Source: a phage. Taken from it: a stretch of 64,000 nt of DNA. A program made the translations under genes and the position numbers. Shown piece after piece: positions 37,382 through 39,457 of the stretch; the first letter of the stretch is position 1, and each line of letters begins with the position of its first letter. Where the stretch lies: assembly GCA_024672275.1 (NCBI GenBank), contig GCA_024672275.1_4536.1; one strand, 5' to 3'. Below the pieces are notes generated by a model. The model did no database searches. It had not been told where the DNA came from and worked only from the letters and a program-made list of their open reading frames with translations.

Positions 37382-39457
37382 GTGGCAAAGAAAAAGGCAG
37401 CAGGTAGTTTAGCTGGAGTAGATATTGAAGTAAAGGCTCAACCAGGTAAACAGACTCTTGCAATGGATTTAATGCCAGAAGTTATGATTTATGGTGGTGC
37501 CGCTGGATGTGTTTCTGCTGAAACAGAATATCTTACAAAAGATGGTTGGAGACAGATTAGTGAATATTCTGGAGAGGATATTTACCAATACAATCCTAAG
37601 AATAAGCGTTTAGAATTGGTAACACCTTATTTTGTAGAATACGATTTAAATGGAGATAACCTATACAGAATAACAAATGGTGTAGGATTGTTCCAAGAAC
37701 TTAGTATGGAACACCGTTTTGTATTCTATAAGAAAAAGAAATCAAAGAAACATTTCGAGATTCTTGTAGGAGATCTTATTGCATTACAGCAAATAGGAAA
37801 ACCCCTGCAAGGTTATGTAGAAAATCCATTCGGTAAACGTGTTCCTTTTAACATACCTGGTAAAAAGAGCACTTACTTAAAAATACACGAGGTTATTTCA
37901 ACAGATGATAAGAAATATTGTTTTGAGACTCCAAGCAGCTATATTGTCTTTAGACGTGGCGATCACTGCTTCGTTACTGGGAATAGCGGCAAGTCTCGTC
38001 TGCTATTGCTGAAAGCTTTAAAATACGCCTACAAAGACCCTTTGTTTGGTGGAATACTTTTCCGTAAGAACACCACTGCTCACCGTAAACCAGGTGGTCT
38101 GTTTACAGAAGCAAAACGTTTGTATCTTCCTTTACAACCGCACGTAAAAGAAAGTACAATGGATATCATTTTTGAAGCCACTGGTGGTGGAACCCTAAAA
38201 TTTGACCATTTGGAAAATGATAACGTAACAGCAGAAACAAACCATCAGGGTACACAGTATTCAATGGTAGGTTTTGACGAGTTAACCCACTTCACACAAT
38301 ATGAAATGCTCTATCTTCTGGGACGTATGCGTTCAGAGTCAGAAACAAGTTTCATGTTGTGCACATGTAACCCTGACGCAGATAGTTGGGTTTTGAATTG
38401 GGTGTTACCTTATCTTGATGAGGGTGGTTATCCTAGAGAAGATATGTGTGGTAAACAAAAATATTTCATCATTGTTAACGATGAACCTGTTTTTGCTGAC
38501 ACACCTGAAGAACTGAAAGAAAAATATCCAGAAAACTGTTTCATGGAAAACCCTAATACAGGGGAGACAGTTGTTATTGAACCACAAACTTTCGTATTTA
38601 TTGGTGGGACAATATTTGATAACCCAGAACTCATTAGGCTTAACCCTAATTACTTAGCACAGCTTAAATCACAAACAGCTATCAAAAGAGCACAGCTTCT
38701 GGATGGTTGTTGGTTTGCACGTATTCAGAAAGAATCTTTCTTTCAACGTGAATGGTTACATAAAATATCTTATAAAGATGTTCCTAACAATCTTAAACTA
38801 ATGCGAGCATGGGATAAAGCTGTTTCAGTTCCTACAGAAACTTACCGTTATCCAGACTATACAACATCTGTCAAAATGGGTAAAGACCAAGATGGTAATA
38901 TCTACATCTTTGGCGACTATGATTATGATGCTGTGGATGAGAAAAGTAAAATTTTTGGAAGGTTTCGAAGACTACCTGGGGAAAGGGATAACCTGATTCT
39001 AAATCAATGTAAGATTGATGGACCAGAAGTTACAGTAGTGCTTCCTAAAGACCCATCTGGTGCTGGGACAATAGAATACACAGAGTCTGCAAAGAAACTT
39101 ATTCTAGAAGGTTTTGTTGTTAAACCAGATGCTATGCCAGGTAACAAGAAAAAGCTTCAGCGTTTTATGCCTTTTAGTAGTGCGTGTCAAAACGGTTTTG
39201 TTTATATTGTTGAAGATTCTTTCCCTAATGTGGAAACTTTAACCCACTTTTATAAAGAATTGGAATCTTTCAATGGTGAAAGATCTACAGCCACTATTAA
39301 AGATGACATTCCCGATGCTGCTGCCTCTTGTTTTAATACTCTGTCAAAAGAGAATACTTTCAAAGCAGTAGCTATCCCTACAACAACAAATGCTCCTACA
39401 GGATACAGTAGAATGAACAGCGGATTTCACCAACCGTATAGTGTCCGTAAAAGATAA
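37382..39457 (+). CDS. terminase large subunit (intein-containing precursor)
   Basis: GTG start with AAGGAGG RBS; P-loop IYGGAAG / SGKS split by insertion; size and position upstream of portal. Confidence 0.8.
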   Translation: MAKKKAAGSLAGVDIEVKAQPGKQTLAMDLMPEVMIYGGAAGCVSAETEYLTKDGWRQISEYSGEDIYQYNPKNKRLELVTPYFVEYDLNGDNLYRITNGVGLFQELSMEHRFVFYKKKKSKKHFEILVGDLIALQQIGKPLQGYVENPFGKRVPFNIPGKKSTYLKIHEVISTDDKKYCFETPSSYIVFRRGDHCFVTGNSGKSRLLLLKALKYAYKDPLFGGILFRKNTTAHRKPGGLFTEAKRLYLPLQPHVKESTMDIIFEATGGGTLKFDHLENDNVTAETNHQGTQYSMVGFDELTHFTQYEMLYLLGRMRSESETSFMLCTCNPDADSWVLNWVLPYLDEGGYPREDMCGKQKYFIIVNDEPVFADTPEELKEKYPENCFMENPNTGETVVIEPQTFVFIGGTIFDNPELIRLNPNYLAQLKSQTAIKRAQLLDGCWFARIQKESFFQREWLHKISYKDVPNNLKLMRAWDKAVSVPTETYRYPDYTTSVKMGKDQDGNIYIFGDYDYDAVDEKSKIFGRFRRLPGERDNLILNQCKIDGPEVTVVLPKDPSGAGTIEYTESAKKLILEGFVVKPDAMPGNKKKLQRFMPFSSACQNGFVYIVEDSFPNVETLTHFYKELESFNGERSTATIKDDIPDAAASCFNTLSKENTFKAVAIPTTTNAPTGYSRMNSGFHQPYSVRKR
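37508..37984 (+). other. mini-intein (159 aa) inserted in terminase Walker A P-loop
   Basis: Insert begins with Cys (CVSAETEYLTKDG), contains block-B-like SMEH, ends ...FVTGN followed by Ser; removal restores GGAAGSGKS. Confidence 0.65.

What the first reader, a model, noticed from the sequence alone, without database searches (positions are those of the whole stretch)
37508..37984. Mini-intein splitting the Walker A P-loop of the large terminase
The terminase ORF reads ...MIYGGAAG then CVSAETEYLTKDGW...(159 aa)...DHCFVTGN then SGKSRLLLLK. The flanks joined give GGAAGSGKS, a normal terminase P-loop. The insert has a nucleophilic Cys1, a block-B-like SMEH, a terminal Asn and a +1 Ser, with no endonuclease-sized domain. 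The penultimate residue is Gly rather than the usual His.
Basis: partly seen in the sequence, partly recalled or inferred. Interest (0 to 1): 0.7.

Follow-up and report, generated by a model that had tools for sequence, protein, structure and literature searches.

The report
Mini-intein inside a phage terminase P-loop
The DNA-packaging enzyme of this phAPEC8-like E. coli phage is interrupted, in the middle of its ATP-binding loop, by a 159-residue self-splicing protein element (a mini-intein) that must excise itself before the enzyme can work; this is a known kind of element, but the phage records I checked do not annotate it and its catalytic residues are unusual.

Summary
The large terminase (TerL) ORF (37382-39457, 691 aa) carries a 159-aa in-frame insert (37508-37984) between GGAAG and SGKS.

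- **Insertion site.** Insert-free homologs read GG(A/S)AGSGKS without interruption. Other TerL clades carry homologous inserts of 146-328 aa at exactly this site.
- **Why it went unnoticed.** Standard Pfam and NCBIfam models miss the insert.
- **Intein evidence.** A profile of 26 insert sequences hits the experimentally proven AceL NrdHF intein (PDB 6zgq, E=4.9e-12). An AlphaFold model (pLDDT 92) matches only HINT-fold inteins and Hedgehog domains.
- **Mobility.** The same profile finds more than 2,000 relatives in helicases, PhoH, ribonucleotide reductase and terminases, many carrying LAGLIDADG endonuclease inserts.
- **Catalytic residues.** They are atypical: Cys1, S-x-x-H-R, Cys at block F:4, Thr-Gly-Asn, and Ser+1. 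This matches the class 3 AceL NrdHF intein residue for residue, except that Cys1 is retained.
- **Host and selection.** The window is a Phapecoctavirus. The intein occurs in 136 phage genome records, mostly Stephanstirmvirinae. It is under purifying selection (dN/dS 0.04-0.08) and is not annotated in the three records inspected.

Verdict: a real, almost certainly splicing-competent mini-intein, and a new member of a known kind. Whether it splices by the class 1 or class 3 route is unresolved.

The parts
37382..39457 (+). TerL precursor ORF (691 aa plus stop), with a GTG start and an AAGGAGGG ribosome-binding site at 37371-37378
   Evidence: ORF listing and sequence. Pfam Terminase_6N E=5e-17. 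99.9% identical to the TerL of 65 Phapecoctavirus records.
37382..37507 (+). N-extein (aa 1-42), ending in GGAAG, the first half of Walker A (37493-37507)
   Evidence: Alignment A1. Insert-free homologs continue directly into SGKS.
37508..37984 (+). Mini-intein, 159 aa, a HINT domain without a homing endonuclease
   Evidence: Profile hit to intein 6zgq, E=4.9e-12. AlphaFold pLDDT 92.3. Foldseek hits are HINT folds: inteins, Hedgehog and bacterial intein-like domains. No LAGLIDADG or HNH match.
37508..37549 (+). Block A (CVSAETEYLTKDGW). Cys1 is at 37508-37510. Thr6, Gly13 and Trp14 are invariant.
   Evidence: Invariant columns of alignment A2. Cys1 is present in 211 of 212 related inteins.
37700..37720 (+). 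Block B (LSMEHRF): Ser66 (B:7), His69 (B:10), Arg70 (B:11), Phe71 (B:12)
   Evidence: His is invariant in A2. The layout matches S65/H68/R69/M70 of AceL NrdHF (PMC7891396).
37910..37951 (+). Block F (KKYCFETPSSYIVF). Cys138 (37919-37921) is at position F:4 and Pro142 is at the kink position. There is no F:13 His.
   Evidence: K-Y-C is invariant in A2. Cys is present in 208 of 212 relatives. The Cys-to-Pro spacing (+4) and the Cys-to-terminal-Asn spacing (21 against 22) match AceL NrdHF C124/P128/N146.
37964..37987 (+). Block G plus the +1 residue (HCFVTGN|S): Thr157 (G:5), Gly158 (G:6), Asn159 (G:7), Ser+1
   Evidence: G, N and S are invariant in A2. (T/S)-G-N followed by S/C/T is found in more than 95% of 212 relatives.
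37985..39454 (+). C-extein (aa 202-691). It starts with SGKS (37985-37996), the second half of Walker A, and contains the rest of the ATPase and nuclease domains.
   Evidence: Terminase_6N matches residues 202-460. The spliced product matches Terminase_6N profile positions 1-214.

Best explanation
The 477 bases encode a self-splicing mini-intein: a HINT domain with no homing endonuclease, inserted between Gly42 and Ser202 of the Walker A motif (GGAAG|SGKS) of the large terminase of a phAPEC8-like coliphage.

The precursor cannot bind ATP, because its P-loop is split by a 17-kDa domain. After translation the intein excises itself and ligates the exteins into a 532-aa TerL with an intact GGAAGSGKS.

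The most likely chemistry has four steps. The residue roles are inferred from the AceL NrdHF work; none has been shown for this protein.

1. Cys1 performs an N-S acyl shift on the Gly42-Cys43 bond. Ser66 (B:7) and His69 (B:10) distort that bond, and Thr157 (G:5) holds His69 in place.
2. The acyl group is passed to Ser+1, possibly by way of the thiol of Cys138 (F:4), which sits between the two splice junctions.
3. Asn159 cyclises and releases the intein. Arg70 (B:11) substitutes for the missing penultimate His.
4. A spontaneous O-N shift forms the Gly-Ser peptide bond.

The element is a vertically inherited, endonuclease-less descendant of a mobile LAGLIDADG-bearing intein family that targets P-loops.
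For: **Shown here**
- The insertion is precise and in frame, and it is absent from homologs.
- It is homologous to a biochemically verified intein.
- A confident HINT-fold model was obtained.
- The same intein family occurs in unrelated host proteins: Toprim/DnaB, PhoH, RecD-like helicase, RNR small subunit and Terminase_3. Many members are split into N and C halves by an insert of about 170 aa, which matches LAGLIDADG_3 above its threshold in the one case scanned (P0129).
- Within TerL, homologous inserts of 146, 159, 246 and 301-328 aa sit at the same site. The large ones give weak LAGLIDADG_3 hits.
- All nucleophiles and assisting residues are conserved across 26 mini-inteins and 212 relatives.
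- dN/dS of the intein is 0.04-0.08, the same range as the exteins (0.02-0.07), across five phages.
- There is only one TerL-like locus in each of the 30 genomes listed, and these are plaque-forming isolates, so the protein must mature (inference).
- Removing the insert in silico restores the start of the Terminase_6N domain.

**From the literature**
- Inteins in terminase P-loops are known and splice (PMC5050341).
- The Gly at G:6 is required in AceL NrdHF (G145H is dead), and the Arg at B:11 compensates for the missing His (PMC7891396).
Against: - Splicing of this protein has not been observed; no mass spectrometry or gel data are available here.
- Standard intein models (Pfam, NCBIfam) do not match the insert.
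- The canonical His residues at G:6 and F:13 and the Asp at F:4 are absent.
- The closest characterised relative uses the class 3 route, so Cys1 may not be the initiating nucleophile.
- dS is saturated (above 1.3), so the dN/dS values are approximate.
Confidence: 0.9

Rival explanations
1. It is a functional intein but uses the class 3 route. Cys138 (F:4) attacks the N-terminal scissile bond directly and forms a block-F branched thioester, then passes the N-extein to Ser+1. Cys1 is a dispensable relic or has another role.
For: - The closest solved and characterised relative, AceL NrdHF, is a proven class 3 intein. It has the same S-x-x-H-R block B, Cys at F:4, a Pro kink, T-G-N and Ser+1.
- Thr at G:5 is described there as a class 3 characteristic.
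- Inteins at the same RNR 'RDE|' site as AceL NrdHF belong to this clade and have Cys1, so AceL NrdHF looks like a derivative that lost Cys1.
- One clade member (P0180) has Pro1 with Cys F:4 retained.
- Tori et al. noted WCT-motif inteins that begin with Ser1 or Cys1 (PMC2807308). Later reviews say class 3 inteins 'do not require' an N-terminal nucleophile (PMC5222942).
Against: - Cys1 is conserved in 211 of 212 clade members. A dispensable residue should drift, as it has in canonical class 3 inteins (Ala or Pro at position 1).
- Three members have lost Cys F:4 (to Gly, Gly and Ser) while keeping Cys1, so Cys1 alone suffices in this scaffold.
- Trp at B:12 is absent (Phe here).
- By the operational definition of Hoffmann et al., which requires no Cys at position 1, it is not class 3.
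Confidence: 0.25
2. It is a degenerate, non-splicing HINT domain that remains in the mature terminase as a permanent insertion.
For: - It lacks the penultimate His and the F:13 His.
- It has no endonuclease.
- It is fixed in a whole phage subfamily and is not recognised by the standard models.
Against: - The insert splits Walker A between the 4th and 5th residues of GxxxxGKS. An ATPase with a 159-aa domain there is not expected to bind nucleotide (established knowledge of P-loops).
- Every catalytic position needed for splicing is invariant, including Asn159 and Ser+1.
- AceL NrdHF lacks the same His residues and splices in minutes.
- Selection acts on the whole domain.
Confidence: 0.03
3. It is a lineage-specific accessory domain of TerL unrelated to inteins, or a bacterial intein-like (BIL) domain that only cleaves.
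For: There is no single-sequence family hit. PHROGs folds the segment into its 'terminase large subunit' profile phrog_979.
Against: - The fold and the profile homology are to inteins.
- Homologs of the insert occur in unrelated proteins at conserved catalytic motifs.
- The +1 nucleophile is conserved and excision restores the motif exactly. This is unlike BILs, which lack the +1 nucleophile (PMC4031507).
Confidence: 0.01

Closest known systems
AceL NrdHF intein (PDB 6zgq), a naturally split, atypical class 3 intein from an Antarctic Ace Lake phage-like contig (Hoffmann et al. 2020, PMC7891396)
   Same: - It is the best sequence match (E=4.9e-12, full length) and the best structural match (TM 0.71/0.74).
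- The active-site layout is the same: Ser B:7, His B:10, Arg B:11, a non-Trp hydrophobic residue at B:12, Cys F:4 followed by Pro at +4, no F:13 His, Thr G:5, Gly G:6, Asn G:7 and Ser+1.
- The size is similar (146 against 159 aa) and both lack an endonuclease domain.
   Different: - AceL NrdHF begins with Ala1; this intein begins with an invariant Cys1.
- AceL NrdHF is split into two genes and sits in an RNR beta subunit; this one is contiguous and sits in the TerL Walker A.
- The two are only about 19% identical.
Mycobacteriophage TerL inteins (Kelley et al. 2016, PMC5050341)
   Same: These are inteins in the ATPase domain of phage large terminases, including the P-loop (TerL1 sites a and b). 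They were shown to splice, and the proposal is that splicing is needed before the pentameric motor can assemble.
   Different: - Those P-loop inteins are in terminase_1-type TerL and sit at or next to the GK|T position. In that study the terminase_6-type TerL carried an intein only in the C-motif (site f).
- Here a terminase_6-type TerL is split at G|SGKS.
- No homology between those inteins and this one was tested here.
Canonical class 3 inteins (MP-Be DnaB, Msm/Mch DnaB-1; WCT motif)
   Same: They have Cys at F:4 and Thr at G:5, prefer Ser or Thr at +1, associate with phages, and prefer P-loops of helicase-like ATPases (PMC2807308). They share the HINT fold (6bs8 and 6riy are among the Foldseek hits).
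   Different: [quoted passage not shown] This intein has Cys1, Phe at B:12 and Gly at G:6.
Class 1 inteins without a penultimate His (for example Ssp DnaE, Ceu ClpP and Mja inteins; Chen, Benner and Perler 2000 and Wang and Liu 1997, as listed in the reference list of PMC4031507)
   Same: They have Cys1, a C-terminal Asn and a +1 nucleophile, and no His at G:6. [quoted passage not shown]
   Different: There is no detectable close sequence relationship. The conserved T-G-N terminus together with Cys F:4 defines a separate clade.

Membership tests
Intein (HINT-domain protein-splicing element) | In-frame insertion in a conserved host-protein motif, absent from homologs, whose removal restores the motif | tested here: met
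   GGAAG|...|SGKS in the window against a contiguous GG[AS]AGSGKS in about 50 insert-free TerL homologs. The spliced sequence matches Terminase_6N from profile position 1.
Intein (HINT-domain protein-splicing element) | HINT fold | tested here: met
   AlphaFold with 26-sequence alignment: pLDDT 92.3, pTM 0.86. Foldseek against PDB: all 50 matches listed (28 with E<1e-3) are inteins, Hedgehog or BIL domains.
Intein (HINT-domain protein-splicing element) | Sequence homology to an experimentally verified intein | tested here: met
   Profile A2 against PDB sequences: 6zgq, E=4.9e-12, covering profile positions 6-152 of 153.
Intein (HINT-domain protein-splicing element) | Catalytic set: N-terminal Cys/Ser, block B (T/S)xxH, C-terminal Asn, +1 Cys/Ser/Thr | tested here: met
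   Cys1, Ser66-x-x-His69, Asn159 and Ser+1. Cys1, His69, Asn159 and Ser+1 are invariant in 26 mini-inteins; Ser66 is Ser or Thr. In 212 relatives Cys1 is 211/212, block B His and Asn are (near-)universal, B:7 is Ser/Thr with a few Cys, and +1 is Ser, Cys or Thr.
Intein (HINT-domain protein-splicing element) | Penultimate His (G:6); typical, but not obligatory | tested here: not met
   Gly158. Gly is present in 206 of 212 relatives. In AceL NrdHF, introducing His at this position abolishes activity.
Intein (HINT-domain protein-splicing element) | Demonstrated protein splicing (ligated exteins plus free intein) | not testable with these tools
   Requires expression with SDS-PAGE or mass spectrometry.
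Intein (HINT-domain protein-splicing element) | Occurrence of related elements in unrelated host proteins (mobility) | tested here: met
   2,259 representatives at E<=1e-10. The hosts include Toprim/DnaB, PhoH, RecD-like helicase, RNR small subunit and Terminase_3.
Mini-intein (no homing endonuclease) | Only the splicing domain, about 130-200 aa, with no LAGLIDADG/HNH/GIY-YIG domain | tested here: met
   The intein is 159 aa and gives no endonuclease family hit. The model is a single all-beta HINT domain with one short helix.
Class 1 intein | N-terminal Cys/Ser/Thr that forms the linear (thio)ester | tested here: inconclusive
   Cys1 is present and 99.5% conserved in the clade. Whether it is the nucleophile that is actually used needs mutagenesis.
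Class 3 intein | Absence of an N-terminal Cys/Ser/Thr nucleophile | tested here: not met
   Cys1 at 37508-37510.
Class 3 intein | Cys at block F:4 (C2:4) | tested here: met
   Cys138. Its spacing to Pro (+4) and to the terminal Asn matches C124 of AceL NrdHF. HMMER's own alignment is offset by one residue, so the assignment rests on the motif spacing.
Class 3 intein | Trp at B:12 and Thr at G:5 (the rest of the WCT triplet) | tested here: inconclusive
   Thr157 at G:5 is met. B:12 is Phe, not Trp. The proven class 3 AceL NrdHF also lacks Trp (it has Met).
Class 3 intein | Block-F branched thioester intermediate | not testable with these tools
   Requires biochemistry on C1A, C138A and S+1A mutants.
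Bacterial intein-like (BIL) domain | No +1 nucleophile; located in variable regions; mainly cleavage rather than splicing | tested here: not met
   Ser+1 is invariant and the insertion is in the Walker A motif.
Terminase large subunit, Terminase_6 type (the host protein) | Terminase_6N ATPase plus a C-terminal nuclease domain, encoded next to the portal gene | tested here: met
   PF03237 E=4e-19 on the spliced protein and a weak PF17289 hit. In the 99.9%-identical phage anhysbys the downstream gene is annotated as the portal protein, and in metagenomic homologs it hits Portal_Mu.

The most novel reading that the evidence does not exclude
This intein, and the large clade it represents (Cys1 + Cys F:4 + Thr-Gly-Asn), may use both thiols.

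One version is a three-step acyl relay: a Cys1 linear thioester, then a Cys138 branched thioester, then the Ser+1 ester. That would be a mechanistic hybrid linking class 1 and class 3 inteins.

The other version is a Cys1-Cys138 disulfide acting as a redox switch. Such a switch would hold terminase inactive until conditions in the infected cell permit splicing, and so would time DNA packaging.

The co-retention pattern fits both thiols mattering. Both Cys residues are kept in 207 of 212 inteins, either one is occasionally lost alone, and none lacks both.
Probability: 0.15. Interest if true: 0.6.

Novelty: new member of a known kind. Interest (0 to 1): 0.33.

Why it matters
**Practical.** Well-used coliphages carry this intein in their essential packaging ATPase: phi92, phAPEC8, the BASEL phage PaulScherrer and many therapy candidates. 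None of the three records I opened (anhysbys, PaulScherrer, phi92) annotates it. [quoted passage not shown] Annotation pipelines miss it because the Pfam and NCBIfam intein models do not match this clade. As a result the TerL length, the domain boundaries and any structural or expression work on these terminases will be wrong unless the 159 residues are removed.

**Mechanistic.** This is a contiguous, E. coli-native relative of the fast, low-side-reaction AceL NrdHF intein. It naturally carries both candidate initiating nucleophiles, so it is a convenient system for asking how class 3 inteins arose from class 1 inteins. It could also be a small new splicing tool with a Gly(-1)/Ser(+1) junction.

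**Biological.** A fixed, endonuclease-less intein under strong purifying selection in a P-loop fits the proposal that some inteins are retained as post-translational regulators. That proposal is not tested here.

Tried and rejected
- **Single-sequence searches of the insert found no intein.** Pfam, NCBIfam and PDB gave nothing. AlphaFold without an alignment failed (pLDDT 38). Both problems were solved by building an alignment of the homologous inserts.
- **The word-indexed homolog search with the insert alone** returned only 5 fragments. The full-length TerL query was needed to recover the family.
- **HEN-remnant idea rejected.** I considered that the central 'HFEILVGDLIALQQ' segment was a remnant of a LAGLIDADG helix, because MAFFT placed it against 'EGELRLQVAVMADG' of the large inteins. 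I rejected this by reading only, without a formal test. The segment is the usual strand-helix 'GD' element of HINT domains that follows block B, it is part of the confidently modelled core, and it aligns within the AceL NrdHF splicing domain.
- **No second intein.** A six-frame search of the window with the intein profile found none.
- **No RNA element or intron.** Rfam found nothing in or around the gene. A promoter and terminator scan was at background level.
- **Composition is not diagnostic.** The intein is about 33% GC against 37-42% in the flanks.
- **Literature.** Tori and Perler 2011, the key paper on class 3 inteins that begin with Ser or Cys, was not available. Its content is cited only through other papers.
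- **Geometry.** Model coordinates are not returned, so the Cys1-Cys138 distance could not be measured.
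Full report
**1. The observation**

The + strand ORF 37382-39457 encodes a 691-aa protein. It starts at GTG and has an AAGGAGGG ribosome-binding site 3 nt upstream. Residues 43-201 (nt 37508-37984) read CVSAETEYLTKDGW...SMEH...KKYCFETPSSYIVFRRGDHCFVTGN. They are flanked by ...MIYGGAAG and SGKSRLLLLK. Every detail in the finding is correct: the coordinates, the 159 aa, Cys1, SMEH, the terminal Asn, the +1 Ser and the penultimate Gly. Pfam Terminase_6N matches the protein only from residue 202, at profile position 8.

**2. It is an insertion, not a native segment**

A homolog search with the full protein returned 1,129 proteins. Alignment and pattern extraction separate four groups:

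| Group | Length | Identity to the window TerL | State at the P-loop |
|---|---|---|---|
| Same insert | ~690 aa | 66-100% | 158-159 aa insert |
| Second mini-insert (for example Vibrio phage PWH3a-P1) | ~660 aa | 40-48% | 146-149 aa insert at the same site |
| Large insert | 746-849 aa | 43-53% | 246-328 aa insert at the same site |
| Insert-free | ~500-530 aa | up to 62-64% in the exteins | contiguous GG[AS]AGSGK[ST] |

Every insert begins with Cys directly after GG(A/S/G)AG and ends (T/S)-G-N directly before SGKS.

Joining the window's exteins in silico gives a 532-aa protein. Its Terminase_6N match now starts at profile position 1 and scores higher (69.6 against 62.7 bits). The closest insert-free TerL belongs to Klebsiella phage vB_KpM_FBKp34.

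**3. It is a HINT domain and is homologous to a proven intein**

The insert alone matches nothing in Pfam, NCBIfam or PDB sequences, and AlphaFold without an alignment fails (pLDDT 38).

An alignment of 26 mini-inserts (A2) changes this:
- As a profile it hits PDB 6zgq, the AceL NrdHF intein, at E=4.9e-12 over nearly its full length. Weaker hits go to a bacterial intein-like domain and to the RecA, gp41-1 and DnaB inteins.
- AlphaFold with A2 gives pLDDT 92.3 and pTM 0.86.
- Foldseek against the PDB lists only HINT folds. The top hit is 6zgq (E=1e-6, TM 0.71/0.74), followed by the Hedgehog autoprocessing domain and many inteins.

**4. It belongs to a large, mobile intein clade**

The A2 profile searched against 1.84 billion representative proteins gives 10,158 hits at E<=1e-3 and 2,259 at E<=1e-10. 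Sampled hosts are Toprim/DnaB primase-helicases, PhoH, a RecD-like helicase, an RNR small subunit and a Terminase_3-type TerL. In that TerL (P0129), a second intein of the clade carries a LAGLIDADG_3 domain scoring above threshold.

- Many are split into N and C halves by about 170 aa, the usual position of a homing endonuclease.
- Several proteins carry two or three inteins.
- Most sit in P-loops, at Gxx G|[SCT]GK[ST].
- Some sit at the RNR '...RDE|' site, which is exactly the site of AceL NrdHF.

The large TerL inserts give weak, sub-threshold LAGLIDADG_3 hits. The window's intein has no endonuclease. By the standard homing-cycle model, this makes it an endonuclease-less derivative; that step is an inference.

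**5. Catalytic anatomy**

Invariant residues in A2 are Cys1, Thr6, Gly13, Trp14, Pro40, His69, Lys136-Tyr137-Cys138, Gly158, Asn159 and Ser+1.

Across the 212 relatives:

| Position | Residue | Count |
|---|---|---|
| 1 | Cys | 211/212 |
| F:4 column | Cys | 208/212 |
| G:5 | Thr or Ser | ~95% |
| G:6 | Gly | 206/212 |
| G:7 | Asn | 212/212 |
| +1 | Ser / Cys / Thr | 135 / 55 / 22 of 212 |

The window's active site matches the AceL NrdHF residues described by Hoffmann et al. (PMC7891396):

| Position | Window intein | AceL NrdHF |
|---|---|---|
| 1 | Cys1 | Ala1 |
| B:7 | Ser66 | Ser65 |
| B:10 | His69 | His68 |
| B:11 | Arg70 | Arg69 |
| B:12 | Phe71 | Met70 |
| F:4 | Cys138 | Cys124 |
| Kink Pro | Pro142 | Pro128 |
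| G:5 | Thr157 | Thr144 |
| G:6 | Gly158 | Gly145 |
| G:7 | Asn159 | Asn146 |
| +1 | Ser | Ser |

Only position 1 is chemically different.

In AceL NrdHF:
- C124 is the essential initiating nucleophile (the class 3 route).
- G145H abolishes activity.
- R69 partly compensates for the missing penultimate His.
- T144 positions His68.

These roles are transferred to the window's intein by homology. They are not shown for it.

**6. Class 1 or class 3?**

*For class 1.* Cys1 is almost perfectly conserved. Three clade members have lost the F:4 Cys (to Gly, Gly and Ser) while keeping Cys1. F:4 Cys is known to occur outside class 3: Mills et al. rank Cys second after Asp at this position (PMC4031507).

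*For class 3.* The nearest characterised relative is class 3. Thr at G:5 is a class 3 trait. One member (P0180) has Pro1 with Cys F:4 retained. Tori et al. had already noted WCT-motif inteins that start with Ser or Cys.

No intein in the set lacks both thiols. I favour initiation by Cys1, with Cys138 assisting or relaying, at about 0.6. Pure class 3 is at about 0.25. The remainder is a hybrid or redox role. Only mutagenesis can settle this.

**7. Host, distribution and selection**

The window is a Phapecoctavirus, a phAPEC8-like E. coli myovirus of about 150 kb. Its TerL is 99.9% identical to 65 phage records.

tblastn with the intein alone finds it at full length in 136 phage records:

| Group | Intein identity |
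|---|---|
| Phapecoctavirus | ≥99% (a few ~87%, e.g. phiWec188) |
| Justusliebigvirus (phi92, BASEL phage PaulScherrer) | ~87% |
| Klebsiella phages | 83-84% |
| Citrobacter phage Tr1 | 79% |

The 30 records listed each have a single TerL locus. These are plaque-forming isolates, so the protein must mature; that is an inference.

Pairwise Nei-Gojobori estimates across five phages give intein dN/dS of 0.04-0.08, against 0.02-0.07 for the exteins. Intein identity (80-87%) tracks extein identity (85-92%). This indicates vertical inheritance under purifying selection. dS is saturated, so the ratios are rough.

**8. Is it known?**

Inteins in phage terminases and in P-loops are well documented (PMC5050341, PMC4760082). 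This particular one does not seem to be:
- The anhysbys, PaulScherrer and phi92 records annotate only 'terminase large subunit' or gp119.
- PHROGs absorbs the intein into its TerL profile.
- No paper in the library links these phages to an intein.
- One 2024 paper states that no inteins have been reported in coliphages.

In the mycobacteriophage survey, terminase_6-type TerL carried inteins only in the C-motif. I could not consult intein-specific databases, so prior listing there cannot be excluded.

**9. Verdict**

This is a real mini-intein, very probably active, in the Walker A of TerL. It is a new, unannotated member of a known kind. It belongs to a distinctive Cys1/Cys-F:4/T-G-N clade whose only characterised member is the class 3 AceL NrdHF intein. 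Interest is modest: the phenomenon is ordinary for specialists. The dual-nucleophile active site, the fixation without an endonuclease and the presence in model coliphages make it a convenient experimental system.

Noticed in passing
window 37880-38000 (last ~30 intein codons plus the C-terminal splice junction): This is the strongest synonymous-site conservation in the whole TerL gene. The fraction of identical codons among synonymous pairs is 0.80 in five phages and 0.65 in nine sequences, against a gene mean of 0.51 (sd 0.05). dS is 0.3-0.7 here against more than 1.3 elsewhere. The motif CTTCGTTACTGGGAATAGCGG is almost invariant. The signal disappears in the two most divergent homologs. No Rfam, promoter-like or terminator-like feature explains it. 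Recombination, gene conversion or a nucleotide-level constraint are possible.
   Followed up: partly
L004 (Klebsiella phage FKP3, PP895363.1) 3225-4640; no counterpart in the window: In this relative the TerL gene carries the same intein and, further downstream, a group I intron (Rfam RF00028, 87 bits, E=2e-22) that encodes an HNH endonuclease. The annotation is therefore split into two 'terminase large subunit' CDSs. One gene is thus interrupted at both the protein level and the RNA level. Fragments P0001 and P0023, on one 7.1-kb contig, and P0022 suggest the same arrangement elsewhere.
   Followed up: partly
window 37730-37750 (A-rich run encoding KKKKSKK inside the intein): Several metagenomic homolog fragments (P0003, P0004) go out of frame exactly at this lysine/A-rich run and then terminate. 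This is most likely homopolymer assembly error, but genuine frameshift variants cannot be excluded.
   Followed up: no
window 33957-35879: A cluster of 10 tRNA genes (Met, Arg, Ser, Asn, Thr, Gly, Gln, Pro, Ile, Met) lies about 1.5 kb upstream of TerL on the same strand. It matches the tRNA array annotated in phage anhysbys.
   Followed up: partly
window 36745-37372: Two overlapping ORFs lie immediately upstream of TerL: 36745-37137 (130 aa) and 37028-37372 (114 aa, containing a lipobox-like LMMTGC). They correspond to the i-spanin/o-spanin pair annotated in related phages, so the lysis genes directly abut the packaging genes.
   Followed up: no
P0129, P0127, P0165 and others (proteins): Many metagenomic proteins carry two to four inteins of this same clade. 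For example, one TerL has a P-loop mini-intein plus a second, LAGLIDADG-bearing intein, and 2,600-aa proteins show 7-9 matched stretches. One member (P0180) starts with Pro1, like class 3 inteins.
   Followed up: partly
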